From assembly GCA_937926355.1 (NCBI GenBank), contig CALAZP010000190.1:40-64039 (forward strand): a stretch of DNA of 64,000 nt. Direction: 5' to 3'. Under the pieces are notes generated by a model. The model had not been told where the DNA came from. It ran no database searches and was given only the letters and a program-made list of their open reading frames with translations. This DNA is from an uncultured Saprospirales bacterium. GTDB lineage: Bacteria; Bacteroidota; Bacteroidia; Chitinophagales; Saprospiraceae. Each line of letters opens with the position of its first letter. Position 1 is the first letter of the stretch. This document shows positions 4,007-60,025 of the stretch, one piece after another. A program made the translations under genes and the position numbers.

Positions 4007-4014
4007 GATATATA
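4007..4014 (+). promoter_or_regulatory. Intergenic octamer GATATATA (candidate phage promoter -10-like element)
   Basis: Context ggtgGATATATAcaac; 29 nt upstream of the ATG at 4044. Confidence 0.45.
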
Positions 4015-4043
4015 CAACAACTAATTTTCTAATTCAAAAATAA

Positions 4044-5210
4044 ATGAACACACCAGAGAACACTGATCAGATCCAGGAAGAATTTGATTGGAATATTTCC
4101 AATCGTAGAAAGATTAACCGAGATATAGAAGTTTTAGATGACTCAAAAGTTTATTGTAGGGAGGATTATGCACAATCTCTCTACTATCAAATGGCTGAAA
4201 GTCTAAAAGGAGTAAGCTCTTCGAAGGATTTGAGAACTGGAAATTCTTATAATAGCACTATTACCTCCCTAACAGATAAGCACGCTATTGCTCAAACTTA
4301 CGAGGGACAATCGATTTATGTTGATGTGGGGAAAGAGAAAAAAGATGCTGATAAACTTGGAATATCTCTAATGGATTTTGAAATTGGGTCCGAGATCCAA
4401 ACCATAGTGAGAAATATTAATGGTACTTATTACGGATCTATAGTAGATTGTTTCATCGAGACAACTAAGCAAGAATTCTTCGAACAGATCAAAAAAGAGT
4501 CCCTTGCTTATGAGGCAAGAATCGAATCCATTAATAACGGAGGTTATATTGTGGATGTTCAAGGCATAAAGTGTTTCTTACCTGGTTCACTTGCAGCTGC
4601 AAATAAGATAACGGACTTTGAGTCTTATTTAGGTAAGAAGATTTGTGTAATGATGGATGGATATGTTCAGAAGAAAGACATATTTGTAGTTTCTTATAAA
4701 AAATATCTTAATAAGATCATGGATCGAAAAATCCAGGAACTTGATCTTACTAAGAAATACAAGGGCTTCGTAACTGGTACTTCCAGCTTTGGAGTTTTCG
4801 TGGAGTGGGAAGACATCTACACAGGTCTTATTCATAAAACAGAGTTCGATAATCAAAAAGTTGAAGGCTTCACCGCTGGAGATGAGATTGAATTTTATGT
4901 CAAAGAAGTAAAGGATGATAATAGGCTAACCTTAACTTTCGGCGAACCTGTTGATAAAACACTAAAAATCTACGATCTCAAAAGGGATCTAGAGGATGGT
5001 GTTTCCCCGATTTCCAACGCAAAAGTTAAGCACAAGAGGAAAAATGGAGCTTTGGTTGAACTATTGGAGTTTGGCTTAATTGCAATGATACCACAAGGTC
5101 GTTTAGGTAAAAGGCATAAAGGTTTAAAAACTGGAGATCAAATCTTGGTAAGCGTTTATGAGGTAGACCAGGTTATGGGAAAAATATTTGTAGAACCAGT
5201 CAATGAATAA
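4044..5210 (+). CDS. Protein with 3-4 S1 (OB-fold) RNA-binding repeats, ribosomal protein bS1-like
   Basis: S1 signatures GGYIVDVQGIKCFLPGSLAA, YKGFVTGTSSFGVFVEWEDIYTGLIHKTEF, AKVKHKRKNGALVELLEFGLIAMIPQGRL. Confidence 0.75.
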   Translation: MNTPENTDQIQEEFDWNISNRRKINRDIEVLDDSKVYCREDYAQSLYYQMAESLKGVSSSKDLRTGNSYNSTITSLTDKHAIAQTYEGQSIYVDVGKEKKDADKLGISLMDFEIGSEIQTIVRNINGTYYGSIVDCFIETTKQEFFEQIKKESLAYEARIESINNGGYIVDVQGIKCFLPGSLAAANKITDFESYLGKKICVMMDGYVQKKDIFVVSYKKYLNKIMDRKIQELDLTKKYKGFVTGTSSFGVFVEWEDIYTGLIHKTEFDNQKVEGFTAGDEIEFYVKEVKDDNRLTLTFGEPVDKTLKIYDLKRDLEDGVSPISNAKVKHKRKNGALVELLEFGLIAMIPQGRLGKRHKGLKTGDQILVSVYEVDQVMGKIFVEPVNE

Positions 5211-6597
5211 CACCCACTTTGATAAAAGACAGTTACTTTCCTCTGCCTTTTTAGGTTTTGAGTTTGAATTCTTCTCTGAAATGGTCAGAGGAAGGATAAC
5301 TGAATCTTTGTCTAAGCTTTTGGGTAAGAAAATAACCCTTTCCAATAAATATCACTCTAAAGATCCTGTTAGTAGGGAGATTTTCAAACTTGAACCCGAC
5401 TATTCTGGAGGGGGAAAAATGAATGAGTTAGTTACTGGTCCCTTACCATATGCAGAAGCTATCCCAGTACTTATCAAGGTTCTTAAATGGATAGATGAAA
5501 ATGGATGGACTACCGATAAGTGCGCTTTCCAATTTTCCCTTAGTTTTGATAAGTTTGATAGATCCATTAAAAGGATGGAGGAGCTTGATAAGCTTCAATT
5601 TATTCTTGGTATTGACGAGGGCTTGATATATTCTAACTTTGGTAACAGAAAAAATAATGTCTATTCTAGGTCCATCAAAAAAGTTGTACCTAGAAATAGA
5701 TTTTCTATTCTCGAAAACGTATCTCATATAGATCCGAAGTTATTCAAAATTCCGGATGAGAAGTATTATGGTGCCAATTTTACAAAAGTACCAAAAGGGT
5801 ATATTGAAATAAGGTATCTGGGTGGTAAAGACTACCAGAAAAAGATTACCGCAATCCGCGACGTAATAGACTATGTTGTTCTTTATACCCATGATATTTT
5901 ATCCGGTAGGAGGTCATACACAAAGACAGACTTAGAAAATCTTAAATCCATGATGAAAGAATATTCTAAGGTTGTGAGGAGCTTCTCAGATCCTGAGTCA
6001 TTCTTCACGAATTTCCCAGATTTCCATCTTTTGGTTGATCTTAAGGGATATTTAGAAAACATTAAAACATACTTCCCCTACATCAGGGAAAAGGTTTTTG
6101 ATATAATAGTGGAGGGTAACGTGAAGAACGGATTCTTCAATTATGATACCACTAATGGGAGATTTCAGCTTAAGGATGTAAAAATCAAAAGCGCTGCATA
6201 CTTAGATAATTTAGACCTTATAAACTGTAAGGTGAGATCCTCTAAATTGGATAATTGTAGGATATTCAGCTGTGACGTTAGAAATAGCGAAATATATAAT
6301 TCTGAGATTTTAAATGGGAATAAGATTTCTAAATCCAAAATTAAGGATACCAGCGCTGATTTTGGAAATAAGCTCATAGAGTGCTACATAGATTCCCCCG
6401 AAAAAATGCTCGATTGTGAAATCACAGGTGGCGTTTTGAGGAAGGGTGATATCGGGAGAAATGCTGATGTAAGCAAGGAGACTGAAAAAGCTAAAGACTT
6501 TAATGAAATAAGAAAGGGTAGGTTTATCACAGATTCTAGATTAAAAAACCTAAATGATCCTATTTCTAGAATAAAGTTTAAAAATCAGAACTACTAA
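5203..6597 (+). CDS. Hypothetical protein; N-terminal region tentatively amidoligase-like (COOH-NH2 ligase fold), C-terminal pentapeptide/beta-helix-like repeats
   Basis: LGFEFEFF, EPDYSGGGKMNELVTGPLPY and YIEIRYLGGKDY fit the amidoligase strand pattern, but the HVH position reads QFS. C-terminal run is NCKVRSSKLDNCRIFSCDVRNSEIYNSEILNGNKISKSKI. Confidence 0.3.
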   Translation: MNNTHFDKRQLLSSAFLGFEFEFFSEMVRGRITESLSKLLGKKITLSNKYHSKDPVSREIFKLEPDYSGGGKMNELVTGPLPYAEAIPVLIKVLKWIDENGWTTDKCAFQFSLSFDKFDRSIKRMEELDKLQFILGIDEGLIYSNFGNRKNNVYSRSIKKVVPRNRFSILENVSHIDPKLFKIPDEKYYGANFTKVPKGYIEIRYLGGKDYQKKITAIRDVIDYVVLYTHDILSGRRSYTKTDLENLKSMMKEYSKVVRSFSDPESFFTNFPDFHLLVDLKGYLENIKTYFPYIREKVFDIIVEGNVKNGFFNYDTTNGRFQLKDVKIKSAAYLDNLDLINCKVRSSKLDNCRIFSCDVRNSEIYNSEILNGNKISKSKIKDTSADFGNKLIECYIDSPEKMLDCEITGGVLRKGDIGRNADVSKETEKAKDFNEIRKGRFITDSRLKNLNDPISRIKFKNQNY

Positions 6598-6598
6598 A

Positions 6599-7379: not shown

Positions 7380-7387
7380 GATATATA
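7380..7387 (+). promoter_or_regulatory. Intergenic octamer GATATATA (candidate promoter element)
   Basis: Context atcttGATATATAtggg; 19 nt upstream of the ATG at 7407. Confidence 0.45.
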
Positions 7388-15785: not shown

Positions 15786-15806
15786 AATTTTGATAAATAG
15801 AAAGTA

Positions 15807-20311: not shown

Positions 20312-20319
20312 GATATATA
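20312..20319 (+). promoter_or_regulatory. Intergenic octamer GATATATA within a near-palindromic core in a divergent intergenic region
   Basis: Context ggtttGATATATAttca; 34 nt upstream of the ATG at 20354. The minus strand reads GAATATATATC upstream of the 20287 ORF and phoH. Confidence 0.45.
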
Positions 20320-20353
20320 TTCAAAACTAAAGAAATCAAAATAATTACAAAAA

Positions 20354-32616: not shown

Positions 32617-32624
32617 AATATATA
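32617..32624 (+). promoter_or_regulatory. Variant octamer AATATATA (candidate promoter element)
   Basis: Context ttggAATATATAaac; 20 nt upstream of the ATG at 32645. Confidence 0.3.
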
Positions 32625-34155: not shown

Positions 34156-35715
34156 ATGGCTGACTTTAATACAAAATACATATTACCAGGTGATGATAAG
34201 GATACTATCATCAATAAGATAAATCACAATTTCTATCAGGTATTTTTTAATGGAGTTGGTGAGAAGGGTCCTGTTGGTAATGTGGGGCCTACAGGGATTA
34301 GAGGACAAGCTGGTAGGGACGGCATACCCGGTGCTACTGGAGAAAGAGCTGCTGAGTGGTTTTTCTCGTCTACTGAACCTATTGATTCTGTTTCACAGGA
34401 CGGCGATATCTGGATTAATATAGGGATAACCGGAGGACAGCAAGTTTACGTTTACACCTCGGGATCTTGGATTTACAGTGGGCAAACGCTTTTATCTTCT
34501 GGTGTATTTTCGACAATAACTGGTATTTCTGGTCCTGGTAATTCCACTTCAAGTAATGCCATTTATATTAATGCTAGCCAGGGAGATAAAACTTTTGTGC
34601 TATCAGACTCAATTGGTGCAACAGCATCCATGAATCCTAACTTTTCTAAAGTTATGGTTTCAACAGATGCCTCTCAAACTGCTGATTTTCCAATTTTTGG
34701 GTTTGCAAAGACATTTTTGCCACAGTCTAGTGGAAATATTGTAGAAATGAAATGGGGTGAGACGGGTAGCTCTTACAACCATAGCTGGACTTTTCCAGAT
34801 GAACTGAGGATGCAAAGTGGTCTTTCTTCGGCCTACTCTGCTACTGGAGGTACTATGAACTTAACCTCCCCCAGCGAAAGCGTGGCTGGCTCTTCCCAGA
34901 GTTTTACCAACTTCACTGCCGCGACCGGAACAAGCGGGGCTTTTGCATTTTCTACACCTTCCGTTTTAAGTTTTACTTCTTCTTTGGTTAATTTATCAGC
35001 ATCCTCCTTCTCTGTAACATTGTCAGCTCCTGGTGGGACTGGATATATTGCAGCCCCAGTTACCCCGTATGTTCCGTTGGTAAGTATCTCTGGATCTGGA
35101 TCTGGAATAAATGTTACAGCATCCTCTGAAACTTCCGATGAGCTGCTACAGATATTAAACACCACTGACCAGGATTTAATTAAATCCGGGAGAACAAATA
35201 AATTCGTATTTGGATCTGTTGGGGCAACAGGACTCAAAAAGGTCAAGGGAATTACTACTACCTCCCAAAATTTCTTATCTGACGGAACAGATTCATATGT
35301 ACTCTGTGGCAACCCGACAAATGATGTGTGTGTTATTACTCCGCCTCCTTCAGGTAGTCCAACTGCTAACGGAAAGGCTAATCGAGTAATGCTGTCCTTA
35401 GGCAGTAACTTTTCTTGGGCTAGTGAACTAGTGAATACTGGACAGAGCAGAACGTTTGATTTCTTTATGAATAGTTCTACATATTCCTTTGGTGGAATAA
35501 GAGTACTCCCTGCTTCTGGCCTTGGTTCTCCAACCAGAGTTTATATAGACGATAACGCTGCTGGCCCAACAGGATGCCAGCATATTAGAATTACTTTTTT
35601 CCCTTCGGGTGTCACTGAGAAGTTTCACTACGAAGCATTTTCTGATGGTAATTATAAATGTGGACAAATAACATACACGTTAGCAATAGCTGAAGGACCT
35701 CTTATAGTGATATGA
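34156..35715 (+). CDS. Collagen-like tail fibre protein (paralog 2)
   Basis: 10 G-X-Y triplets (aa 35-64, nt 34258-34347). G12-D13, N23, N25-F26, G35 and W68 are at identical positions to paralog 1. Confidence 0.75.
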   Translation: MADFNTKYILPGDDKDTIINKINHNFYQVFFNGVGEKGPVGNVGPTGIRGQAGRDGIPGATGERAAEWFFSSTEPIDSVSQDGDIWINIGITGGQQVYVYTSGSWIYSGQTLLSSGVFSTITGISGPGNSTSSNAIYINASQGDKTFVLSDSIGATASMNPNFSKVMVSTDASQTADFPIFGFAKTFLPQSSGNIVEMKWGETGSSYNHSWTFPDELRMQSGLSSAYSATGGTMNLTSPSESVAGSSQSFTNFTAATGTSGAFAFSTPSVLSFTSSLVNLSASSFSVTLSAPGGTGYIAAPVTPYVPLVSISGSGSGINVTASSETSDELLQILNTTDQDLIKSGRTNKFVFGSVGATGLKKVKGITTTSQNFLSDGTDSYVLCGNPTNDVCVITPPPSGSPTANGKANRVMLSLGSNFSWASELVNTGQSRTFDFFMNSSTYSFGGIRVLPASGLGSPTRVYIDDNAAGPTGCQHIRITFFPSGVTEKFHYEAFSDGNYKCGQITYTLAIAEGPLIVI

Positions 35716-35752
35716 TTTTAACTTATAAAAATTTTGGATAAATATAACTAAG

Positions 35753-40382: not shown

Positions 40383-40390
40383 GATATATA
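40383..40390 (+). promoter_or_regulatory. Intergenic octamer GATATATA (candidate promoter element)
   Basis: Context ggtaaGATATATAaaat; 21 nt upstream of the ATG at 40412. Confidence 0.45.
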
Positions 40391-40704: not shown

Positions 40705-40731
40705 AGCTCCCTGGTAACTGGGAGCTTTTTT
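40705..40731 (+). terminator. Rho-independent terminator
   Basis: AGCTCCC-TGGTAACT-GGGAGCT followed by TTTTT. Confidence 0.7.
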
Positions 40732-40741
40732 GTGTTAGGTT

Positions 40742-40749
40742 GATATATA
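40742..40749 (+). promoter_or_regulatory. Intergenic octamer GATATATA (candidate promoter element)
   Basis: Context aggttGATATATAactt; 25 nt upstream of the TTG at 40775. Confidence 0.45.
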
Positions 40750-46214: not shown

Positions 46215-46227
46215 ATCTACCTTGAAT

Positions 46228-46268: not shown

Positions 46269-46289
46269 AACTGTAAATAAAGGATTGAT

Positions 46290-47571: not shown

Positions 47572-47572
47572 T

Positions 47573-48019: not shown

Positions 48020-48028
48020 GATAGGTAG

Positions 48029-49552: not shown

Positions 49553-49562
49553 CCATTTGTCC

Positions 49563-49570
49563 GATATATA
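49563..49570 (+). promoter_or_regulatory. Intergenic octamer GATATATA (candidate promoter element)
   Basis: Context gtccGATATATAggat; 18 nt upstream of the ATG at 49589. Confidence 0.45.
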
Positions 49571-49588
49571 GGATAAATGAGGAAGAAA

Positions 49589-51437: not shown

Positions 51438-51441
51438 GAGG

Positions 51442-53355
51442 ATGGCTGGGATAAATCACTTATATGACATTTACAACAAAAAAGGATCTGACTTTGTCAA
51501 TCAGCTTTTTAATCGTTATGTAACCATCAACGAAAAGATGGATGGCTCGGCTTTTTCTTTTGAAAGAGATAAGGAATCTGGAAATTTCCGGTTTTATAGG
51601 AGGGATCAAAGAAATCCAATAACTTTAGTGGACAGGACTCTCATGAAATATTACGAGAAGCCAATCCAGTATATCGAATCTCTTCCTCCAAACATACTTG
51701 AAAAAATACCTAGAGGATTGAGATTCGGGCTGGAATATTTTTCAAACACTAAACCTGTAGAGATCTCCTACGATAGATTGCCAAAGAATAACTTGATTCT
51801 TTCTTATATCCACAAGATGGGTACTGGAGGTAAGATAGAAAGCACTATTCAGGATAAGGGGGAATTAGACAATTGGGCAGATCTGATTGGGGTTGAAAGA
51901 CCACCAATTGTTTTTCAGGGAGTTCTAGACGAGGACCAGAAATCTGAACTTATGGAGTTTTTGAACACCCCGTTCAAGGATCTTGTCGAAAGATTCAAAA
52001 CTCAATCTTTTGTTAGGTTTGTTATTAAGACCCTGAACCCAGAGTTAACCAAAACTGCTCTCAACGATGACCTAGATAAGGACGTCGAGGGAATAGTTTT
52101 TAGGTTTGGCGAGCCCGATGGTGATAGTGATACCGTTTTAGCTAAAATGGTAGATCCAATATTCACCGAGATTGCTAAGCAAAAGTTTGCTGACAAAAAG
52201 AGCAAAAAGCCTTCTGATTTTCTAGGTATTACGCTGCTCGACGTAATGAATTTCATTTTGGAGAAAGATCTTTCCGAATTTGAAGTTGAAGGCGAGTCTG
52301 AGGACGAGAGATACATTTCCTTTATAGGAGACGTTTTTGTCAAGTTCCTTGATGAATACGAGGAAAAGTATAAGGGTACTGATTTCGAAGAACCAGATTA
52401 TCTAAAAAGAGAAGAATTTAGGTTAAACAAGGAAAAAATTAAGGATAGAAGAGTTCTTAAGTATGTTGAAAAAGACGACTCGTTCGAATCTCTATTCAAA
52501 CTCATTCTTAATTCCTTTAGAAAAATAAAAACCAGAGCTGGTGGAATAATCACAGCTGGTATGAAGGACCAAATGAATCTTTTGATCAAAGACATTAAGG
52601 ACTACATCAAAAAACCAGAGAAGAACGTAAACGAATCTAGGTTTATTAGCTTCGGTGAATTTAGGAAGGAGAACACCCCCTCTGTAGAATACCTACAGGA
52701 GGAGGATGATTCGGATACAAGTGATGATCCTTTTTTCTCATACCGTGAATTCATCAGCAAACTTGAGACTATTGATAACGAGGAGTTGCCAAACGAGGTA
52801 GAGATTCTTAAAGAGGACGATACCGAGGAAAGAAAGCCGGTAAATGTCATAATGGGTAGATTTCAGCCCTTCCACCAGGGGCACCTCAAGATGGCAAAGG
52901 ATCTTATGGAGAAAAACGATTTGCCTTCATTCGTTGTTGTAGTTTATCCTGGCCACAACAAGTCTGGAAAATCCCCATTTGATGAAGAATCTATCAAAAG
53001 ATACATGAATGCGATAGTTGCCAACAATGAAGAGATAGAAGGCTATGTTCTTGCTACTCGGGGACTTCTTGGTTCTGCCATTGCAAGACTAATAGATATG
53101 GGATATGATCCTAAGTTAATTGGTGCAGGCCCCGACCGAATAGATGACTACTCTAAGCAGATAGACTATGTTAAGATGTCTGATATAAAAGACAAAATAA
53201 GCGATGACCTAAGCATAGTAGAAACCCCAAGAGTAACGAGCGGTACCGAAGTTAGGCAAGCTATGAAAGACCAAGATTTTGCCAAGTTTAAAAAGATGGT
53301 TCCAAAAGAGGTCTCAAACCTCTATAATGACCTCATTACAAGCGTCAGGGACTGA
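51442..53355 (+). CDS. Fusion protein: N-terminal covalent nucleotidyltransferase (RNA/DNA ligase-like) domain plus C-terminal NMN adenylyltransferase-like (HxGH cytidylyltransferase fold) domain
   Basis: Ligase motifs: I INEKMDGS, III RFGLEYF, IV VEGIVFRF, V VLAKMVDP. C-terminal: IMGRFQPFHQGH and TSGTEVRQAM. Confidence 0.65.
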   Translation: MAGINHLYDIYNKKGSDFVNQLFNRYVTINEKMDGSAFSFERDKESGNFRFYRRDQRNPITLVDRTLMKYYEKPIQYIESLPPNILEKIPRGLRFGLEYFSNTKPVEISYDRLPKNNLILSYIHKMGTGGKIESTIQDKGELDNWADLIGVERPPIVFQGVLDEDQKSELMEFLNTPFKDLVERFKTQSFVRFVIKTLNPELTKTALNDDLDKDVEGIVFRFGEPDGDSDTVLAKMVDPIFTEIAKQKFADKKSKKPSDFLGITLLDVMNFILEKDLSEFEVEGESEDERYISFIGDVFVKFLDEYEEKYKGTDFEEPDYLKREEFRLNKEKIKDRRVLKYVEKDDSFESLFKLILNSFRKIKTRAGGIITAGMKDQMNLLIKDIKDYIKKPEKNVNESRFISFGEFRKENTPSVEYLQEEDDSDTSDDPFFSYREFISKLETIDNEELPNEVEILKEDDTEERKPVNVIMGRFQPFHQGHLKMAKDLMEKNDLPSFVVVVYPGHNKSGKSPFDEESIKRYMNAIVANNEEIEGYVLATRGLLGSAIARLIDMGYDPKLIGAGPDRIDDYSKQIDYVKMSDIKDKISDDLSIVETPRVTSGTEVRQAMKDQDFAKFKKMVPKEVSNLYNDLITSVRD

Positions 53356-53361
53356 TATATA
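53354..53361 (+). promoter_or_regulatory. Octamer GATATATA overlapping the upstream stop codon (candidate promoter element)
   Basis: Context ggacTGATATATAaaaa; 19 nt upstream of the GTG at 53381. Confidence 0.45.
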
Positions 53362-53380
53362 AAAAAATACAAATAAACCA

Positions 53381-53920: not shown

Positions 53921-53951
53921 TCCAAATTGAAACATTTACTCTTAACAATCC

Positions 53952-53959
53952 TATAAATA
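53952..53959 (+). promoter_or_regulatory. TATAAATA box (identical to the T4 late-promoter consensus)
   Basis: cTATAAATAagg; 18 nt upstream of the ATG at 53978. Confidence 0.35.
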
Positions 53960-53977
53960 AGGAAAATTTAAACAACT

Positions 53978-54154
53978 ATGGAAAATTTCGATCGAATCAA
54001 AGAAGTTATGGAAGCTGCAGAAGCTGACGTAGCAAAGTTTGTTGAAAAAGGCAATAAGGCAGCTGGAACAAGAGTTCGCCAAGCCATGCAAGAAGTTAAG
54101 AAGCTTGCTCAACAAGTAAGGTTGGATGTTCAGGAGATAAAGAACAACTCTTAA
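53978..54154 (+). CDS. Histone H1-like / Hc1-like small basic DNA-binding protein (Bacteroidota-type), 58 aa
   Basis: My translation: MENFDRIKEVMEAAEADVAKFVEKGNKAAGTRVRQAMQEVKKLAQQVRLDVQEIKNNS*. The core KFVEKGNKAAG.R.R matches the family. Absent from the ORF track, which lists only an antisense ORF here. Confidence 0.6.
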   Translation: MENFDRIKEVMEAAEADVAKFVEKGNKAAGTRVRQAMQEVKKLAQQVRLDVQEIKNNS

Positions 54155-54178
54155 GAAACCAAACCACAAACAGATATT

Positions 54179-54204
54179 AGGCAGCCCTTCAGGCTGCCTT
54201 TTCT
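54179..54204 (+). terminator. Rho-independent terminator
   Basis: AGGCAGCC-CTTCA-GGCTGCCT followed by TTTCT. Confidence 0.75.
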
Positions 54205-54243
54205 GTGTACATGGAAATGGAAATGGAATAAAACCACCTAATC

Positions 54244-54251
54244 GATATATA
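54244..54251 (+). promoter_or_regulatory. Intergenic octamer GATATATA (candidate promoter element)
   Basis: Context aatcGATATATAagat; 19 nt upstream of the ATG at 54271. Confidence 0.45.
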
Positions 54252-54270
54252 AGATGTAAATTTTATACAC

Positions 54271-54477
54271 ATGGGATATTACGTAGCAAAAGTTAGTTTT
54301 GAATCAACTGAAACCAAAAGAAATGGTGATCCAGTAATTCACAAATCAGAATTTCTAGTTGCAGCTGAGTCTGTGCTAGAGGTTGAGACGAAAGTAGCGG
54401 AGTTCCTTGAGGGAACCACTGGATTCTTTGAAACCACACAGATTTCAAAATCCAAAATCGAAGCAGTTATAGAATAA
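54271..54477 (+). CDS. Hypothetical protein, 68 aa
   Basis: ORF after a promoter-like octamer. Confidence 0.45.
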   Translation: MGYYVAKVSFESTETKRNGDPVIHKSEFLVAAESVLEVETKVAEFLEGTTGFFETTQISKSKIEAVIE

Positions 54478-54773
54478 TGGCAAATACCGGCAGCTATATT
54501 CCCCCACAATCCCCCATTGCTATCCAACCTGGAGACAAGGGATTTGAGATAGTTGGGAAGAGTTACAATAGATGGCTTTGGACATTCCCCGATTGGAAGA
54601 AGGGAAAGAAGAAGATAATTAATCCTGCAACTAACTGGGAATTGAACGCAAAGCCAATGAGTCCTGCAGAGATAAAGAAAAAGATGAAAGGTCTTTATCT
54701 ACAGGAGGATAACGATAAAAAAGTAGAGGAGAGCATGAAAATCATTACTCCCTACGAAAAATATAAGATTTGA
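54477..54773 (+). CDS. Hypothetical protein, 98 aa
   Basis: ORF; TAATG overlap with the upstream gene. Confidence 0.45.
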   Translation: MANTGSYIPPQSPIAIQPGDKGFEIVGKSYNRWLWTFPDWKKGKKKIINPATNWELNAKPMSPAEIKKKMKGLYLQEDNDKKVEESMKIITPYEKYKI

Positions 54774-54774
54774 A

Positions 54775-55212
54775 ATGCCCTCGGTTAGTAAAGCACAGCA
54801 AGCAATTATGGGTCAAGCTTGGGCTCTAAGACAAAACGAGCTAAAGCTCAAGGACATCAATGCTAAATACAGAAAAGAAATCGAAAAGATTGCTTTTGGT
54901 TACAAGGACAAGGACGGAAAGTTTATTGCACCTATGACTGACAAGGAACTTAAAAAGTTTGCAAAAACAAAATCTAAGGATTTACCCGAGAACGTAAAAG
55001 ACGGTAAACCGGTGAATGAGGAAAAATTCACTCCGGGGATAACCAGTTCTAAGGGAGTTCCATCCTTTACACCTAGTATTACTTTTGGTGGAGAAATTAA
55101 ACCCATTATACCTTATCTAGACACGGATGCAAAAAAAGAGAAGCCTGGGAAGAAAAACCTAGAGAATCTCAAGGATTATAGGGACTGGATAAAGGAAAGA
55201 AAGAAGTCATGA
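54775..55212 (+). CDS. Hypothetical Lys-rich protein, 145 aa
   Basis: ORF; N-terminal SKAQQAIMGQAWA motif. Confidence 0.45.
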   Translation: MPSVSKAQQAIMGQAWALRQNELKLKDINAKYRKEIEKIAFGYKDKDGKFIAPMTDKELKKFAKTKSKDLPENVKDGKPVNEEKFTPGITSSKGVPSFTPSITFGGEIKPIIPYLDTDAKKEKPGKKNLENLKDYRDWIKERKKS

Positions 55213-55619
55213 TAAATCTTTTTGAGTTTGATAAGTATGATCCTAAATCTGAATATCTTGAGGATGAAAGGAGAAACATAGATCTGGATAAGATAAGAAA
55301 GTCTGATGCTTATATGGATATTTTAGACCTCGGTTTTTCCGATGAAACCTCGGATCAACAGGAACTAAACAATACACTCAAATTCAAAAGAAAGAATCAG
55401 CCTGAGGTAAAGGGATATGGTGAGGTATTTTACACTATACACCCAACAGGTGTAGTTCGTCGCTATAACCCAATCAAATCAAATGAAACCCCAGAGGGAC
55501 AAGGAAATACTATTAGGACTTATCCATCACCTTTCAGAAACGGTAAGGAATATAAAAAGGCATTAAGATACCTCTTTAATTATCTACGGAGAAAGGAATT
55601 AAGGAAAGACTATAGATAA
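55209..55619 (+). CDS. Hypothetical protein, 136 aa
   Basis: ORF; ATGA overlap with the upstream gene. Confidence 0.45.
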   Translation: MINLFEFDKYDPKSEYLEDERRNIDLDKIRKSDAYMDILDLGFSDETSDQQELNNTLKFKRKNQPEVKGYGEVFYTIHPTGVVRRYNPIKSNETPEGQGNTIRTYPSPFRNGKEYKKALRYLFNYLRRKELRKDYR

Positions 55620-55647
55620 ATATAGAAACAACTTAAAGAATACTAAA

Positions 55648-55875
55648 ATGGGATGTGGATGCAATAAAGGGTCAAGGAGTGAGACAAGCACTCAAACTAC
55701 AAAGCAATACGATGACCTTTCTGGTAAGTTTATACTTGACACACAGGGTAACAAATTTCTTGTAACTTCGCCAATATATGATGCTTATAAGGATATTGTT
55801 GGCTACACTGTCAAGGACGAGCAGGGAAACTCTCTTAGAATATTTGCAAAGAATGTTCAAAAAATACTAGATTAA
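55648..55875 (+). CDS. Hypothetical protein, 75 aa (N-terminal MGCGCNKG)
   Basis: ORF. Confidence 0.4.
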   Translation: MGCGCNKGSRSETSTQTTKQYDDLSGKFILDTQGNKFLVTSPIYDAYKDIVGYTVKDEQGNSLRIFAKNVQKILD

Positions 55876-55876
55876 A

Positions 55877-56371
55877 ATGGATTCAATGTACTATCCAACT
55901 GGAAATTCAACTAACGGACGAACGCTAGTTTGTTTGTGCTGCGAGGATGTTCCGGTAATGGAAGACCAGGAAACCCCAGATGCTATGGAACTTAAGATCA
56001 AGGAATGGTTGGACGAAAACGACTATTGCGTTGAAAAATGGCAAATGGACGAAGAAATGAAAAATTGCGGATGTGAAGGGTATGAACTCCAAGAAATGGA
56101 TGGAGGAGCACCTGCACCAGCTGGAGATGGTGGTGGAGCATTCGCTACATTAGGAACTACCCAGGGGATGGGAAATGTTGAAGCACCTTCGTCTGGCGGT
56201 ACTAATGCAGATTTTTATAGCGGAGCAGTTGGATCCGGCGATAAGTTCCCTTCACTTACGGTAGGAACCCCGGCTGCTAAAGGGGGTTCTGGTAAAAAGA
56301 AGAAAAAGAAAGATAAGGTTGTTAAAAGCTTCGAGGATTTCAAGAAAATGATGAAGTCTTTGCAGAAATAA
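55877..56371 (+). CDS. Hypothetical protein with Cys pairs, a Gly/Ala-rich linker and a poly-Lys tract
   Basis: CLCCED, CGCEGY, GGAPAPAGDGGGA, GKKKKKKDK; C-terminal KSFEDFKKMM. Confidence 0.45.
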   Translation: MDSMYYPTGNSTNGRTLVCLCCEDVPVMEDQETPDAMELKIKEWLDENDYCVEKWQMDEEMKNCGCEGYELQEMDGGAPAPAGDGGGAFATLGTTQGMGNVEAPSSGGTNADFYSGAVGSGDKFPSLTVGTPAAKGGSGKKKKKKDKVVKSFEDFKKMMKSLQK

Positions 56372-56395
56372 GACAAAAAGTCATAACTGTTTGCT

Positions 56396-56425
56396 AAAAG
56401 GTGCCAAAAAGGCACCTTTTTCTTT
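56396..56425 (+). terminator. Rho-independent terminator (A-tract/U-tract symmetric, potentially bidirectional)
   Basis: AAAAGGTGCC-AAAAA-GGCACCTTTT followed by TCTTT. Confidence 0.8.
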
Positions 56426-56476
56426 GCTTTTTATTAGTGGAACAGGATTTGAAATATTAGTAATAAAAAACAAATT

Positions 56477-56833
56477 ATGAACAGAACAACTTTTTACAGT
56501 CCTCTAGAAATGATGGAAAGGATTTTCCACAACACAAATCCTGTTATTCAAAGTAGAAACTACTTTGTGGACGAGAGGGATGGAGAGTATGCTTTAGAAA
56601 TACCGGTCCCTGGTTTTTCTAAAAAAGACATCTCGGTTGATGTCGAAGGAAACTTTTTGGTCATAAGTGGTGAAGATAATGAATCATATTGGACAGATGA
56701 CTTCACGAAGAAATTCAAACTTCCCAATGAAGCTGATCCAGAATTGATTAAAGCGAAGATAGAAGACGGTGTACTTAAGGTTTCAGTGGGTAAGAAGAAA
56801 GAGTCGATGCCTAAGAAGATTAAAATCTCATAA
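56477..56833 (+). CDS. Small heat-shock protein (Hsp20/alpha-crystallin family)
   Basis: YALEIPVPGFSKKDISVDVEGNFLVISGE ... F.KKFKLPNEADPELIKAKIEDGVLKVSV. Confidence 0.85.
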   Translation: MNRTTFYSPLEMMERIFHNTNPVIQSRNYFVDERDGEYALEIPVPGFSKKDISVDVEGNFLVISGEDNESYWTDDFTKKFKLPNEADPELIKAKIEDGVLKVSVGKKKESMPKKIKIS

Positions 56834-56865
56834 GTTCCGAAATTTTTCTTACTTTTATAAATATT

Positions 56866-56896
56866 AAAGCTCGATCACTAAAGATTGAGCTTTTTT
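56866..56896 (+). terminator. Rho-independent terminator
   Basis: AAAGCTCGAT-loop-ATTGAGCTTT (one G-U pair) followed by TTT. Confidence 0.6.
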
Positions 56897-56899
56897 ATT

Positions 56900-57115
56900 A
56901 TGTCAAGGGAAAAAGAAATATTCGAAAGATTCGCAATTGAGATTGCACAAGAAATCATTAAGAAGGAAGAAAATCCAGACTATGAAATAATTCTGGATAG
57001 AAAGTCTGTTATAGGTAAACTTTCATCTATCATGGGACAAGAATATCCAGAAACAGCCTCTCAGTTTGATAAGAGAATAAATGATCACCTAAAAAGATTA
57101 AGGAGAAATCTATAA
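56900..57115 (+). CDS. Hypothetical protein, 71 aa
   Basis: Start moved to the ATG at 56900; the listed TTG at 56885 lies inside the terminator stem. Confidence 0.45.
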   Translation: MSREKEIFERFAIEIAQEIIKKEENPDYEIILDRKSVIGKLSSIMGQEYPETASQFDKRINDHLKRLRRNL

Positions 57116-57501
57116 TGGAAAGGCTTATACAGGAAGATTACTTAGATAGCCCTTGGAAGATGACCGTAATATGTATACTGCTAAACCAAACCACTAACCA
57201 GCAGGTAAGAAAAATTTTAGATTCCCTTTTTGATCTAATACAATCCCCAGAGAAATGCTCTGGATTGAACCCAGACCAGATCTATCCAGTAATTAAAGGA
57301 ACTGGCTTTGGAAACGTAAAATCTAGGAGGATAATCTCTATGAGTCAAAAATGGATCGACGGATTTAAAGACGTCCAAGAATTACCCGGGGTTGGAAAAT
57401 ACGCAAAGGAGTCCTGGGAAATTTTTGTGAATGGAAAAACAAATTTTACTCCAAGTGACAAAAAATTAAGGATGTACCTAGAGGGATTGAATAGTCTCTA
57501 A
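57115..57501 (+). CDS. HhH-GPD DNA glycosylase, MBD4 glycosylase-domain-like
   Basis: ICILLNQTTNQQV, ELPGVGKYAKESWEIF (HhH, compare MBD4 GIGKYGNDSYRIF), downstream PSDKKL candidate catalytic Asp. Confidence 0.6.
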   Translation: MERLIQEDYLDSPWKMTVICILLNQTTNQQVRKILDSLFDLIQSPEKCSGLNPDQIYPVIKGTGFGNVKSRRIISMSQKWIDGFKDVQELPGVGKYAKESWEIFVNGKTNFTPSDKKLRMYLEGLNSL

Positions 57502-58170
57502 TAGAGCTGGATGTGGTGGACAGCTCAATCTATCAATTCTTACATTGCTATGAGACCAAAGACCTTGACCCCCTAATAAAGCATTTTCTGACAGTTCAAA
57601 TCCACCAAAATCACCAAACTTCAGGATTTCTTTCTGAAGACCTCTTTTAAGATCTATTTCATATTTTTCGCTAAGGTATTTAAGTAAACCCTTTAGTGAT
57701 TCTATTTGAGCTTTTGAATAACTATGAAAATACTTACTGCCCCTGAAAGGTGATTCAAGCTCTGTAACTTGATTTTTACTTATCTTAACGTGACTTGATG
57801 TATAGAAATCTCCATCCTCTGTTTTTATAAGAGGACCGTAGTTACATATGTCGATGCCTATACTCTTTTGGTTTAGGAAGGTGTTATTTTTTGCTTTTAT
57901 GAATAGATGGTGTGACCACATAGATTCGTCAAAAGCTCTATAAACTACCCCATCATACTTTTTATCTTTCCCGTCTGGAGATATACCACCAATTACAAAT
58001 GCACTAGAGGATCTTATTTTGTTGGTAGAATTTTTCCTGTCTCTTCCCCGGTATTCAATCAGCCAATCGGGCCTATAATGTCCAGACGAATCCCTTAGGA
58101 AAATGGAATCCTTCGGGTGTGGTTGTTGATAATATGCACTTTCGGAAAGTGGATGATCAATATATTCCAA
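57478..58170 (-). CDS. Peptidoglycan amidase (Amidase_2/PGRP fold) endolysin
   Basis: SHHLFIKAKN..NQKSIGIDICNYG and LWSHSNV...RLSCPP (His/Cys Zn ligands). The first Zn-ligand position is ambiguous (IFLRDSSGH). Confidence 0.6.
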   Translation of the reverse strand: MEYIDHPLSESAYYQQPHPKDSIFLRDSSGHYRPDWLIEYRGRDRKNSTNKIRSSSAFVIGGISPDGKDKKYDGVVYRAFDESMWSHHLFIKAKNNTFLNQKSIGIDICNYGPLIKTEDGDFYTSSHVKISKNQVTELESPFRGSKYFHSYSKAQIESLKGLLKYLSEKYEIDLKRGLQKEILKFGDFGGFELSENALLGGQGLWSHSNVRIDRLSCPPHPALLETIQSL

Positions 58171-58180
58171 TCCTTGATAC

Positions 58181-58507
58181 TTATTTTTCTTCGGAGGTTT
58201 TGGCTGTTGGTGAAAGTTCCTCGTGTATTCTCTTTTTCAAATACTTGATAACATCCTTAGGTGCCTCTCCATTTTTAACCATATTCGTGAATTCCTCCTC
58301 CTCTGCTAACGTATCTAAATAGTTGTAAAGATCCGTACTTTGAAACATTGAATCCACTACCTGTGGGGTTTGTGTATAAGCGGGCCTATAGTTTCTTGAG
58401 TTAACATTATCCTTGTACCATTCACCAGGAACAACCACACTACCAGGTGCTGCTGAAATGTAATATTCATTAAGGAAATTCTCGAAACTTTTGATCCTGC
58501 TATCCAT
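58181..58507 (-). CDS. Hypothetical protein with leader MDSRIKSFENFLNE
   Basis: Start moved to Met13 of the listed ORF, because the octamer (58518-58525) lies inside the longer version. Leader is paralogous to 49589 and 53381. Confidence 0.5.
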   Translation of the reverse strand: MDSRIKSFENFLNEYYISAAPGSVVVPGEWYKDNVNSRNYRPAYTQTPQVVDSMFQSTDLYNYLDTLAEEEEFTNMVKNGEAPKDVIKYLKKRIHEELSPTAKTSEEK

Positions 58508-58517
58508 AAGTATGTTG

Positions 58518-58525
58518 TATATATC
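58518..58525 (-). promoter_or_regulatory. Octamer GATATATA on the minus strand (candidate promoter element)
   Basis: Minus strand reads aaaGATATATAcaac; 10 nt upstream of the ATG at 58507. Extended match to the 4007 copy (GATATATACAAC). Confidence 0.45.
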
Positions 58526-58567
58526 TTTAGCGATTTCCGCCAAAGGTGTAATCTCAAATTTTATTCC

Positions 58568-59980
58568 ATGATAGTAGACATTGAAAACAAAGGGACTTAT
58601 TTAAAAGTATCGTCTTTCTCCGAGGAGGGCGATTTAATTTTTGTAGATGTTCCTGTCCCAGAGGAGGAAAGGTTTATCTGGGAAAAATGCTCACCTTCGG
58701 ATAGAAGAAGGGCATCTGATTGGGAGTCTTGGGATGGAATGCCGGTTAGAAAAGTGAAGACCCAGAAGTATGACAAATACCGAATGGTTCAAATCTTGGA
58801 AGAAGCAGACCCAGAGCTTACTAAATCTCTTTGGGATTTCCAAATCCCGAAAAAGTACTTTGTGGATATTGAGGTTGAGATGACCGATGAGATGGGAGAT
58901 TCCCTAGATACCTCTAATGCCAAGAACAAGGTGCTTTCTATCGGTATTGCAACAGATAGGTGTAAATCAATAATTCTAGGGCTTGATCCACTTTCAGCCG
59001 AGGAGCAAGCGGACATTTACAAAAAGACCAACGAGTATCTTGAACCGATGGGTGATGAATGGTCTTTTAAATATCACCAGTTTGAATCTGAGTATGATAT
59101 GCTTTATACCTTCTTTAAGAAGTTGGCCCCTAAAATGCCATTGATAACTGGGTGGAACTGGTTTGGGTATGACTGGCCATATTTGGTGAATAGAGCTAAG
59201 AGACTTGGTATCGATCCAAAGGTAATTTCACCAGCTAACTGGCTTATTGGAAAGAACAATCTTCCTATGCATTTGCTAATGGTCGATTATCTTGAGATCT
59301 ATAAAAAATGGGATCGGACAATTAAGATCAAGGAGAGCAATAGATTAGACTATGTTGCAGAGAAGGCTACAGGGTTAAAGAAGATTGTATATGACGGATC
59401 TCTAAGGGACCTCTACCAGTCTGATTTCCCTAAGTTTATCCTTTACAACGTAATTGACTGTGCCCTGGTTCACTATATAGATGTTAAGTTAAAAACCCTC
59501 CTAACTTATTTCAAGATAGCTAATTTAAACAGGGTTGAAATCAGTAGGGCGCTTTCACCCGTATGGGCAACAGAGGTCATGATGCTCAAAAAGTTTTTGG
59601 AGAGGAATCAGGTCTTTGTCAATGAGAGGAAAGAAGAAAGCCATGTCAAATTCATTGGTGGGTATGTCAAAGAGCCTATCAAGGGACTTCACGAATGGGT
59701 TGCTTGTTATGACTTTGCTTCCCTATACCCAAACACCATTGTGCAATGGGGTATTTCTCCTGAGGTTTATAAAGGTAAGCTAGGAAGGGATATATCTGAA
59801 GCCAAAGAGGGATGGGTGAAAACATCCTCTACCGCACTCTTTGGTGGAGACGACGAAAGTCCAATTCTGAAGACAATAATTAAGGACTTATACTCAAAGA
59901 GGAAAGCAACAAAAAAGAGAATGCTTGAGTTGCAGATAGAAATTGACGGGTTGGAGAAACAATTGAAAAAATTAACATAG
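58568..59980 (+). CDS. gp43: Family-B DNA polymerase, N-terminal part (exonuclease domain, motif A and first fingers helix), T4 gp43-like; split gene
   Basis: ExoI FVDIEVE, ExoII ITGWNWFGYDWPYLVNRA, ExoIII YNVIDCALV, motif A YDFASLYPNTI. Stop about 50 aa later; no KxxxNSxYG or YGDTDS motif. Confidence 0.85.
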   Translation: MIVDIENKGTYLKVSSFSEEGDLIFVDVPVPEEERFIWEKCSPSDRRRASDWESWDGMPVRKVKTQKYDKYRMVQILEEADPELTKSLWDFQIPKKYFVDIEVEMTDEMGDSLDTSNAKNKVLSIGIATDRCKSIILGLDPLSAEEQADIYKKTNEYLEPMGDEWSFKYHQFESEYDMLYTFFKKLAPKMPLITGWNWFGYDWPYLVNRAKRLGIDPKVISPANWLIGKNNLPMHLLMVDYLEIYKKWDRTIKIKESNRLDYVAEKATGLKKIVYDGSLRDLYQSDFPKFILYNVIDCALVHYIDVKLKTLLTYFKIANLNRVEISRALSPVWATEVMMLKKFLERNQVFVNERKEESHVKFIGGYVKEPIKGLHEWVACYDFASLYPNTIVQWGISPEVYKGKLGRDISEAKEGWVKTSSTALFGGDDESPILKTIIKDLYSKRKATKKRMLELQIEIDGLEKQLKKLT

Positions 59981-60017
59981 AATTTTCCTAAAATCACCGC
60001 ACTTTAGGGACCCACTT

Positions 60018-60025
60018 GATATATA
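60018..60025 (+). promoter_or_regulatory. Intergenic octamer GATATATA (candidate promoter element)
   Basis: Context cacttGATATATAaaaa; 51 nt upstream of the ATG at 60077. Confidence 0.45.

What the first reader, a model, noticed from the sequence alone, without database searches (positions are those of the whole stretch)
4007..60025. Octamer GATATATA found only in intergenic spacers: candidate phage-specific promoter
Exact plus-strand copies lie at 4007, 7380, 20312, 40383, 40742, 49563, 53354, 54244 and 60018, and one minus-strand copy lies at 58518. Each is 10-51 nt upstream of a start codon on the same strand. Scanning by eye I found no exact copy inside a coding region. Only one-off variants occur there, such as GATATATT at about 5650, 35045 and 42651, and GATATATC at about 59790. 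Spacers make up only a few percent of the window, so this placement is strongly non-random. Several copies extend to TTGATATATA or GATATATA(C)AA. Variants AATATATA (32617, 45189), GATAAATA(TA) (15792, 35737, 55615) and TATAAATA (53952, 56856) also precede genes. The motif does not resemble the Bacteroidota sigma-A -7 box (TAnnTTTG). It does recall the -35-less T4 late promoter TATAAATA. It precedes both structural and replication-type genes.
Basis: seen in the sequence. Interest (0 to 1): 0.6.

Follow-up and report, generated by a model that had tools for sequence, protein, structure and literature searches.

The report
Huge-phage promoter octamer GATATATA
The octamer GATATATA is a real promoter-type signal of a huge (at least about 330 kb) uncultivated phage of Bacteroidota; it is a diverged version of the phage T4 late promoter and is most likely read by a small T4 gp55-like sigma factor that the phage encodes.

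Summary
All lie in spacers, or overlap a stop codon, 10-51 nt before a same-strand start. Spacer-only shuffles expect 0.1 copies; nine are seen.

The window belongs to a T4-like huge myovirus. Thirteen contigs (about 326 kb) are binned with a Saprospiraceae-like Bacteroidota MAG. In the phage contigs GATATATA is the top upstream 8-mer (44 upstream, 14 coding, about 109-fold). In the host contigs it never occurs upstream; those show TAnnTTTG instead.

The motif has no -35 partner. It is followed by a conserved A five nt downstream, the likely start site. It is depleted inside genes on both strands. It stayed invariant in more than 40 diverged orthologous spacers from IMG/VR relatives.

Relatives carry sister motifs: AATATATA, AATAAATA, GATAAATA, ATACATA. 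The family is xATAnATA, the T4 late type (TATAAATA). The phage and all six relatives checked each encode one gp55-like sigma. No phage RNA polymerase was found.

Best reading: a -35-less promoter read by host core polymerase plus the gp55-like factor. Novelty: a new variant of a known kind.

The parts
4007..4014 (+). GATATATA promoter core, 29 nt before ATG 4044 (S1-like 388-aa gene in the baseplate module)
7380..7387 (+). GATATATA promoter core, 19 nt before ATG 7407 (gp25-like baseplate wedge gene)
20312..20321 (.). Overlapping divergent pair. GATATATA on + (20312-20319) lies 34 nt before ATG 20354. AATATATA on - (20314-20321) lies 26 nt before the minus-strand 58-aa ORF and PhoH operon.
40383..40390 (+). 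GATATATA directly after the TAA stop of the tube-like gene, 21 nt before ATG 40412
40705..40749 (+). Terminator hairpin (40705-40726 plus T-run) followed by GATATATA (40742-40749), 25 nt before TTG 40775 (RuvC-like resolvase operon)
49563..49570 (+). GATATATA after the helicase stop, 18 nt before ATG 49589. The octamer is invariant in more than 40 distinct orthologous spacers whose flanks differ.
53354..53361 (+). GATATATA overlapping the TGA stop (53353-53355), 19 nt before GTG 53381. Exact in 14 and variant in 5 of 34 orthologous upstream regions.
54179..54251 (+). Terminator hairpin (54179-54199) followed by GATATATA (54244-54251), 19 nt before ATG 54271
58518..58525 (-). GATATATA on the minus strand, 10 nt before ATG 58507 (108-aa gene, then a 230-aa gene)
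60018..60025 (+). GATATATA 51 nt before ATG 60077 (NTP pyrophosphohydrolase, NrdB, NrdA operon)
15792..15799 (+). Variant GATAAATA in a spacer, 7 nt before ATG 15807 (1220-aa gene)
32617..32624 (+). Variant AATATATA in a spacer, 20 nt before ATG 32645 (tail-fibre-like gene)
35737..35744 (+). Variant GATAAATA in a spacer, 8 nt before ATG 35753
55615..55622 (+). Variant GATAAATA overlapping a stop codon, 25 nt before ATG 55648
53929..53957 (+). Different promoter type, not part of the GATATATA class: GAAACA-N17-TATAAA, about 20 nt before a 58-aa ORF.
56396..56460 (+). Different promoter type: terminator (56396-56420), then a T-rich stretch and ATATTAG (56454-56460), 16 nt before ATG 56477 (Hsp20). 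The same element recurs before small genes on contigs C201 and C52.

Best explanation
GATATATA is the -10-like core of a -35-less promoter class of a huge T4-related myovirus that infects Bacteroidota. The fuller consensus is GATATATA-V-N3-A-A-A. G1 can be any base, T5 can be A, and the last A is invariant.

Proposed mechanism: the host's core RNA polymerase, carrying a small phage-encoded sigma of the T4 gp55 family (about 119 aa, sigma region 2 only, contig C278 about 27448-27810), melts the octamer and starts at the conserved A five nt downstream. This gives mRNAs with leaders of about 13-14 nt and, in a minority of cases, leaderless mRNAs.

**Shown:** the placement of the motif, its phage specificity, its conservation, its depletion inside genes, the sister motifs in relatives, and the presence of the gp55-like gene.

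For: **1. Placement.**
- 9 copies in spacers against 0.096 expected.
- Top upstream 8-mer in 13 phage contigs: 44 upstream against 14 coding, about 109-fold, p about 1e-59.
- Same-strand orientation with an ATG-led ORF within 45 nt at 72% of sites, against 16% of random positions.

**2. Phage-specific.**
- No copy in 85 kb of host upstream DNA.
- The host's top upstream 8-mers are TATATTTG and TATTTTTG, that is TAnnTTTG.

**3. Promoter anatomy.**
- No information upstream of the octamer.
- The base 5 nt downstream is A or G in 47/50 sites. In 104 distinct contexts from relatives it is A in 92 and a purine in 102.
- Terminator followed by motif at 40705/40742 and 54179/54244.
- Divergent pairs at 20312-20321 and on C224 at 7067/7095.
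- The motif-to-ATG gap is never below 4 nt. Helicase orthologues keep the ATG exactly 4 nt after the motif while those 4 nt vary.

**4. Selection at the DNA level.**
- Deep inside phage genes: 2 sense and 0 antisense copies, against 8.5 and 7.5 expected.
- AATATATA and GATAAATA are similarly depleted on both strands. GATATATT and GATATATC are much less so. The host shows no such pattern.

**5. Conservation.**
- Top upstream 8-mer in 74 IMG/VR relatives: 164 upstream against 45 coding.
- 100% conserved in more than 40 distinct orthologous spacers after the helicase, with divergent flanks.
- 21/21 orthologues of gene 49589 carry it. The promoter-less control genes I picked out carry it in at most 1 of 33-46 orthologues.

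**6. Family.**
- Relatives show (A/G)ATATATA, AATATATA, (A/T)ATAAATA, GATA(A/T)ATA and nATACATA upstream of genes.
- T4's late promoter is TATAAATA.

**7. Reader.**
- gp55-family ORF on phage contig C278: phrog_234 E=4.7e-14; the only significant PDB match (E = 3e-4) is T4 gp55, 7d7c_F.
- One such ORF in each of six relatives.
- Ordinary sigma-70-family genes vary from 0 to 4 per relative; PTm1 has none.
- T4 pocket residues Y97 and T99 hold the flipped A at -12 and A at -8 (PMC7892883). T99 is T in all seven clade proteins; Y97 is Y or F (Y in this phage). These correspond to motif positions 2 and 6; A6 is not tolerated as a variant and A2 only weakly.
- No phage RNA polymerase was detected.

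**8. Late genes behind the motif.** Sheath, scaffold plus major capsid, tube (GATAAATA variant) and baseplate genes.
Against: - Promoter activity and the start site are therefore inferred.
- The gp55-like protein lacks T4's C-terminal helix-loop-helix and clamp-binding tail, and gp33 was not found. The T4 activation mechanism cannot be assumed.
- The phage also encodes two sigma-70-family factors. Either could in principle read an extended -10 type promoter.
- The motif precedes replication and nucleotide-metabolism operons as well as structural ones, unlike the strict late restriction in T4.
- The residue at T4 H95 (the -9 pocket) is F throughout the clade. It does not track the base that varies (A, T or C) at motif position 5.
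- That the 13 contigs come from one phage rests only on tetranucleotide composition and on the shared motif.
Confidence: 0.68

Rival explanations
1. The motif is a promoter, but it is read by one of the phage's sigma-70-family factors as an extended -10 type element, not by the gp55-like protein. The candidates are the 269-aa factor at C171:18618-19427 and the 205-aa ECF-like factor at C278:19557-20174.
For: Both genes lie on phage-type contigs and pass the Sigma70_r2 cut-off. Several copies read TTGATATATA, which recalls a TGn extended -10. The motif precedes non-structural genes too.
Against: - T before the G occurs in only 34% of sites, and no -35 element exists although both factors have a region 4.
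- A separate bipartite class, GAAAC(A/T)-N16-17-TAnAAn, is a better fit for the ECF-like factor.
- Sigma-70-family genes vary from 0 to 4 among relatives that all keep an xATAnATA motif. PTm1 has none.
Confidence: 0.17
2. The motif acts in RNA, as a processing (RNase) site or a translation-initiation enhancer. A possible binder is the phage S1-like protein encoded at 4044-5210.
For: The motif-to-ATG distance peaks sharply at 18-19 nt in relatives. Genes here lack Shine-Dalgarno sequences.
Against: - The motif precedes only roughly a fifth of genes, typically at operon starts and after terminators.
- Spacing ranges from 4 to 51 nt.
- The motif family is depleted on the antisense strand of genes, which an RNA signal would not cause.
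- Divergent pairs occur.
- It is homologous to a known DNA promoter family, and the cognate sigma is present.
Confidence: 0.04
3. The motif is an operator or binding site for a phage DNA-binding regulator, or another DNA signal. It lies next to promoters without being the promoter itself.
For: Invariant short A/T-rich words upstream of genes can be regulator sites. The ATATATA core is nearly palindromic.
Against: - No other conserved promoter element accompanies it within 45 nt on either side.
- Sigma-70-type promoters are not enriched in the region: 43 found against 54 expected.
- Orientation is strictly gene-directed through the G at position 1 and the A downstream.
Confidence: 0.08
4. The pattern is a chance by-product of A/T-rich spacers.
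For: Spacers are A/T-rich. The whole-window count is only about 3 times the expectation.
Against: Spacer-only dinucleotide shuffles give 0.096 against 9 observed. The motif is absent from host spacers of similar composition. It is conserved in orthologous spacers with divergent flanks.
Confidence: 0.01

Closest known systems
Phage T4 late promoters (TATAAATA at -13 to -6), read by gp55 with gp33 and the gp45 sliding clamp
   Same: - An 8-bp A/T-rich -10-like element with no -35 element.
- Six of eight bases are shared (xATAxATA).
- The phage encodes a gp55-family sigma with T99 kept (Y97 is Y or F), the T4 residues that hold the flipped A at -12 and A at -8.
- Host core polymerase is used.
- The motif sits before structural genes: sheath, scaffold and capsid, tube, baseplate.
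- A purine start lies 5-6 nt downstream.
   Different: - The consensus has G at position 1 and T at position 5.
- T4's own TATAAATA is not depleted on the sense strand of this phage's genes (antisense ratio 0.46).
- The gp55-like protein is about 119 aa and lacks T4's helix-loop-helix and clamp-binding tail.
- gp33 was not detected.
- The motif also heads replication and nucleotide-metabolism operons.
- Some transcripts would be leaderless.
Upstream xATAnATA motifs of related Bacteroidota jumbo and megaphages found here (LR756500.1, LR756502.1, Lak-A1, Flavobacterium phage MaF61, Tenacibaculum phage PTm1)
   Same: They show the same placement before genes, the same lack of a -35 element, and one gp55-like ORF per genome.
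   Different: The preferred bases at positions 1 and 5 differ: AATATATA, AATAAATA, GATAAATA and ATACATA. I found no publication describing any of these motifs.
Bacteroidota housekeeping sigma-A promoters (-33 TTTG, -7 TAnnTTTG)
   Same: Both are A/T-rich elements close to the start site in a host that does not use TTGACA/TATAAT promoters.
   Different: The sequence is different and there is no -33 element. The host contigs of this same bin use TAnnTTTG and never GATATATA upstream.

Membership tests
T4-type late promoter / gp55 system | An 8-bp A/T-rich -10-like element with no conserved -35 element | tested here: met
   Information content is about 0 from -45 to -1 in 50 sites of this phage and in 104 distinct contexts from relatives. 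The octamer is invariant by selection.
T4-type late promoter / gp55 system | Consensus TATAAATA | tested here: not met
   The consensus is GATATATA, which differs at positions 1 and 5. GATAAATA and AATATATA are tolerated variants. TATAAATA is only weakly enriched upstream and is not depleted on the sense strand inside genes.
T4-type late promoter / gp55 system | Phage-encoded gp55-family sigma (sigma region 2 homologue) | tested here: met
   phrog_234 hit at C278:27454-27732, E=4.7e-14. PDB 7d7c_F gp55, E=3e-4. T99 is conserved and Y97 is Y or F in the clade. One copy in each of six relatives.
T4-type late promoter / gp55 system | gp33 co-activator | tested here: inconclusive
   phrog_254 gives no hit at E<=1 in the whole bin. 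However, the phage assembly is fragmentary and gp33 is small and diverges quickly.
T4-type late promoter / gp55 system | Sliding clamp, plus a clamp-binding tail on gp55 | tested here: not met
   A clamp homologue exists at C278:34657-34604..35604, 29% identical to the MaF61 clamp. The T4 gp45 profile does not hit it. The gp55-like proteins of the whole clade end about 45-50 aa short of T4 gp55 and lack the SLDFLYEAND-type tail.
T4-type late promoter / gp55 system | Activity restricted to late infection and coupled to replication | not testable with these tools
The motif precedes both structural and replication-type operons.
Bacteroidota sigma-A promoter | -7 box TAnnTTTG with -33 TTTG | tested here: not met
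   TAnnTTTG is the top upstream signal of the host contigs but is only 2-fold enriched upstream of phage genes. GATATATA does not match it.
Sigma-70 -35/-10 promoter (TTGACA-N17-TATAAT) | Bipartite consensus enriched upstream of genes | tested here: not met
   43 matches against 54 expected in 40300-60200. No -35 element next to the octamer.

The most novel reading that the evidence does not exclude
A large, globally distributed clade of 170-640 kb Bacteroidota phages runs much of its gene expression through a minimal sigma: a gp55 relative of about 120 aa with sigma region 2 only, no clamp-binding tail and no detectable gp33. This factor would read a -35-less octamer whose first and fifth bases have drifted between lineages (GATATATA, AATATATA, AATAAATA, ATACATA). 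That drift would give a natural series of promoter-specificity changes. The factor would start transcription exactly 5 nt downstream, so a subset of genes would be expressed as leaderless mRNAs. It would be the last step of a cascade: host sigma-A, then a phage ECF-like sigma (GAAACW-N16-17-TAnAAn), then gp55-like (GATATATA).
Probability: 0.35. Interest if true: 0.6.

Novelty: new variant of a known kind. Interest (0 to 1): 0.45.

Why it matters
Huge phages of Bacteroidota, including the Lak gut megaphages, are known almost only from metagenomes. I found nothing published on how they are transcribed.

A defined promoter word and a candidate reader have several uses:
- They allow operon maps and better gene starts. 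Here they correct the starts at 49589 and 58507.
- They help tell phage contigs from host contigs in bins. This GTDB representative MAG carries about 326 kb of phage DNA.
- They give a tractable test system: a 120-aa sigma whose specificity differs between relatives at one or two bases.

Conceptually this extends a textbook T4 mechanism and is not a new kind of system.

Tried and rejected
- **Phage RNA polymerase.** Searches gave nothing on phage contigs: PF00562 hit only host rpoB on C282, and PF00940 gave no hit. The PF00940 control rang nowhere, so that result is weak.
- **gp33 and T4-type gp45.** Neither the gp33 profile (phrog_254) nor the T4 gp45 profile (phrog_223) was found.
- **Literature.** GATATATA as a phage promoter returned only irrelevant hits. 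Nothing turned up on late promoters of Flavobacterium or Lak phages.
- **Pocket residues against the variable fifth base.** I tried to tie this base (A, T or C) to gp55 pocket residues. The H95 equivalent is F in every clade member. The N13 equivalent varies (N, K, S) but without a clean rule in seven sequences. No conclusion was drawn.
- **Terminators upstream of the motif.** The association is only moderate: 9 of 50 sites against a 7.5% background. I use it as minor support only.
- **Chryseobacterium phage MA9V-2.** It showed only A-rich upstream words and no clear xATAnATA motif in the 50 kb sampled.
- **Codon-shuffle expectations.** These overestimate all TA-rich words, so depletion was judged against non-functional sister words and against the host.

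Full report
**1. The observation**

The window is contig C190:40-64039 of a 2.99-Mb, 336-contig assembly. It is packed with plus-strand genes, and only about 2-2.7% is non-coding.

- Eight copies lie wholly in spacers.
- The copy at 53354 overlaps the TGA stop of the upstream gene.
- The minus-strand copy at 58518-58525 lies 10 nt before ATG 58507.

Whole-window enrichment is modest: 10 copies against 3.45 expected. The placement is not. GATATATA is the most spacer-enriched 8-mer found de novo (9 in spacers, 0 in coding on the plus strand, p about 3e-15). Dinucleotide shuffles of the spacers alone expect 0.096 copies, with a maximum of 2 in 3000 shuffles. One-mismatch variants as a group are at chance level: 88 found against 87 expected.

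**2. What the window is**

PHROG scans identify these genes:

- T4-type baseplate genes (gp5-, gp6- and gp25-like) and a tail tube gene.
- PhoH and Hsp20.
- A gp32-like SSB, a primase and a UvsW/gp41-like helicase.
- The N-terminal half of a split family-B DNA polymerase.
- NrdA and NrdB.

The nearest phage records by tblastn are the 462-kb uncultured phage LR756500.1 (31-43% amino-acid identity), the Lak Prevotella megaphages, 630-735-kb uncultured phages, and jumbo phages of Tenacibaculum, Chryseobacterium and Flavobacterium plus Sphingomonas phage PAU.

IMG/VR holds 74 closer relatives, with helicase identity of 73-99%, on contigs up to 373 kb.

Tetranucleotide PCA splits the assembly into two groups:

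- 13 phage-type contigs, about 326 kb in total: C190, C278, C151, C32, C224, C171, C240, C242, C201, C52, C329, C59 and C21.
- A host-type remainder. Its rpoB is closest to Saprospiraceae/Lewinellaceae MAGs of Bacteroidota.

**3. The motif is phage-specific and points towards genes**

| Measure | Phage contigs | Host contigs |
|---|---|---|
| GATATATA upstream of genes | 44 copies in 16.6 kb | 0 copies in 85 kb |
| GATATATA in coding, both strands | 14 copies in 2 x 299 kb | 96 copies in 2 x 2109 kb |
| Upstream-to-coding density ratio | about 109-fold, p about 1e-59 | not enriched |
| Top upstream 8-mers | GATATATA | TATATTTG and TATTTTTG, that is TAnnTTTG |

TAnnTTTG is the Bacteroidota sigma-A -7 box.

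Of the 68 sites in phage contigs, 72% have an ATG-led ORF of at least 40 aa within 45 nt downstream on the same strand. Only 16% of random positions do.

**4. Anatomy**

- Anchored alignments show no information upstream of the octamer, so there is no -35 element.
- Downstream, the first base is almost never T.
- The fifth base after the motif is a purine in 47/50 sites. In 104 distinct contexts from relatives it is A in 92 and a purine in 102. An A-rich tract follows.

Tolerated substitutions:

- Position 1 can be any base (31-fold upstream enrichment).
- Position 5 can be A, giving GATAAATA (16-fold).
- Position 2 is tolerated weakly.
- Changes at positions 3, 4, 6 and 7 are not enriched upstream.
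- A change of the last A never occurs upstream.

Distance to the start codon:

- In this phage the motif-to-ATG gap peaks at 19-27 nt; in relatives it peaks at 18-19 nt.
- A minority class has 4-8 nt.
- No site has fewer than 4 nt.
- In several helicase orthologues the ATG sits exactly 4 nt after the motif while those 4 nt differ: aata, gata, caga, aaaa.
- The A of that ATG is therefore the same position as the conserved A. I read this as the transcription start. These genes would then be leaderless. This is an inference.

Other promoter-like features:

- Terminator-like hairpins precede the motif at 40705-40726 and 54179-54199.
- Across all sites the link to terminators is moderate: 18% against a 7.5% background.
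- Divergent motif pairs occur in divergent spacers, at window 20312-20321 and on C224 at 7067/7095.
- Classical TTGACA/TATAAT matches are not enriched: 43 found against 54 expected.

**5. Selection acts on the DNA**

I looked deep inside phage genes, at least 60 nt from the 5' end and 100 nt from the 3' end.

- GATATATA occurs twice on the sense strand and never on the antisense strand.
- Codon shuffling expects 8.5 and 7.5.
- Codon shuffling overestimates all TA-rich words, so I compared sister words and the host.

| Word | Phage, observed/expected (sense / antisense) |
|---|---|
| GATATATA (functional) | 0.23 / 0.00 |
| AATATATA (functional) | 0.17 / 0.09 |
| GATAAATA (functional) | 0.20 / 0.24 |
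| GATATATT (non-functional) | 0.78 / 0.68 |
| GATATATC (non-functional) | 0.62 / 0.62 |
| GATCTATA (non-functional) | 1.40 / 1.47 |

In the host contigs the three functional words are mostly in the 0.55-1.06 range; GATATATA on the sense strand is lower, at 0.34. Depletion on the antisense strand argues for a DNA signal, where spurious promoters would be selected against. It argues against an RNA signal.

**6. Conservation**

- In 921 kb from 74 IMG/VR relatives, GATATATA is again the top upstream 8-mer: 164 upstream against 45 coding. These regions are homologous to one another, so this is not independent of the window result.
- The spacer after the helicase gene (window 49553-49576) gives a clean footprint. 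More than 40 distinct orthologous spacers all keep GATATATA. The bases on both sides differ freely.
- By orthology, 21/21 distinct upstream regions of gene 49589 carry the exact motif.
- For gene 53381, 14 of 34 upstream regions are exact and 5 are variants. For gene 54271, 12 of 34 are exact and 3 are variants.
- Genes with no motif in the window, such as 46290, 47573, 50074 and 54477, have it in at most 1 of 33-46 orthologues. A few genes gain or lose it.

**7. Relation to T4 late promoters**

De novo upstream words in more distant relatives:

| Phage | Upstream motif |
|---|---|
| LR756500.1 | (A/G)ATATATA |
| LR756502.1 | AATATATA |
| Lak-A1 | (A/T)ATAAATA (AATAAATA: 10 upstream, 3 coding) |
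| Flavobacterium phage MaF61 | GATA(A/T)ATA |
| Tenacibaculum phage PTm1 | nATACATA |
| Chryseobacterium phage MA9V-2 | unclear |

All fit xATAnATA, the pattern of the T4 late promoter TATAAATA.

**The candidate reader**

- The phage contig C278 encodes a member of the T4 gp55 family. The phrog_234 match has E=4.7e-14. The only significant PDB match is T4 gp55, 7d7c_F.
- Each of six relatives has exactly one such ORF.
- The T4 structure paper reports that gp55 flips the A at -12, -9 and -8 into pockets lined by Y97, N13/H95 and T99 (PMC7892883). In T4 numbering these are motif positions 2, 5 and 6.
- In the clade T99 is conserved and Y97 is Y or F. H95 is F throughout. This fits the constraint on A6 and, more weakly, A2, and a looser position 5. 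It does not explain which base is preferred at position 5.

**Other transcription machinery**

- No phage RNA polymerase was detected.
- The phage also encodes a 269-aa sigma-70-family protein (C171) and a 205-aa ECF-like sigma (C278). The ECF-like gene lies behind a host-type TATATTTG box.
- Such genes vary from 0 to 4 among the relatives; PTm1 has none.

**Differences from T4**

- The gp55-like proteins are about 115-125 aa. They lack T4's C-terminal helix-loop-helix and clamp-binding tail.
- gp33 was not found.
- A sliding clamp homologue is present, but the T4 gp45 profile does not recognise it.
- The motif heads structural operons: sheath, scaffold plus major capsid, tube and baseplate. 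It also heads replication and nucleotide-metabolism operons.

**8. Other promoter classes, seen in passing**

- (a) A T-rich stretch followed by TATATTAG(CTAAGTAATCAAACAA) recurs before small genes on C201 and C52. It also occurs at window 56454, before Hsp20.
  - Contigs C201, C59, C21 and C329 lack GATATATA, and C52 has only two copies.
  - This suggests a separate, probably early, region.
- (b) GAAAC(A/T)-N16-17-TAnAAn has 27 matches, 21 of them intergenic.
  - It lies before the gp55-like gene and the clamp gene on C278.
I treated that as a lead, and the pattern search supports it weakly.

**9. Verdict**

The most likely mechanism is a -35-less promoter read by host core polymerase with the phage's gp55-like sigma, starting 5 nt downstream.

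- I put the chance that it is a promoter at about 0.9.
- It is a new variant of a known kind.
- Literature searches found no description of this motif or of promoters in this phage clade.

Noticed in passing
window 56396-56476; contigs C201 (43, 693, 3240, 4852, 5371, 5667) and C52 (257): A second promoter-like element: a T-rich stretch, then TATATTAG, often followed by CTAAGTAATCAAACAA, about 16-25 nt before small genes. It is repeated almost verbatim on C201 and C52, which nearly lack GATATATA. It is probably an early, host-sigma-like class.
   Followed up: partly
window 53929-53957; C278 27400, 34612, 59510; C52 4125; C240 11109: A third, bipartite element, GAAAC(A/T)-N16-17-TAnAAn. It has 27 matches in phage contigs, 21 of them intergenic. 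It precedes the gp55-like sigma gene and the sliding-clamp gene. It is a candidate middle promoter for the phage ECF-like sigma.
   Followed up: partly
G000 contigs C190, C278, C151, C32, C224, C171, C240, C242, C201, C52, C329, C59, C21: About 326 kb of huge-phage DNA is binned inside this Saprospiraceae-like Bacteroidota MAG, a species-representative genome. The phage contigs separate cleanly on tetranucleotide PC2. IMG/VR holds relatives on contigs up to 373 kb.
   Followed up: partly
C278:19557-20174, C171:18618-19427, C278 about 27448-27810: The phage encodes three sigma-like proteins: an ECF-like protein of 205 aa behind a host-type TATATTTG box, a sigma-70-family protein of 269 aa, and a gp55-like protein of about 119 aa that probably starts at GTG.
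   Followed up: partly
window 49577/49589 and 58507/58543: Two gene starts need revision. Orthologues show that the 166-aa ORF really starts at ATG 49589 (MDNIKDF...). The minus-strand 120-aa ORF most likely starts at ATG 58507, not TTG 58543.
   Followed up: yes
window 40412-58507 and many genes on C151, C32, C224, C171: Many small proteins behind GATATATA begin with a similar N-terminus: M-x-(K/R)-x-(K/R/S)-F-x-x-F, for example MKSFRSF, MKLRSF and MDNIKDFQSF. An earlier first-reader note compares this to a capsid-targeting leader. I did not test it.
   Followed up: no
L023 (Flavobacterium phage MaF61, record 55282-55410 region): The gp55-like ORF of MaF61 carries an insertion of about 130 aa in the middle of the sigma region 2 homology. 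Its open frame is 253 aa, against about 120 aa in the other relatives.
   Followed up: no
contig C190 bases 1-25 and 70-94 (just outside and at the window start): The first 25 bases of the contig recur 69 bases further on. This could be a short direct repeat or an assembly-end artefact.
   Followed up: no
L020 (Lak-A1 gp55-like ORF): The Lak-A1 gp55-like frame contains three in-frame TAG codons, consistent with stop-codon recoding in that phage.
   Followed up: no
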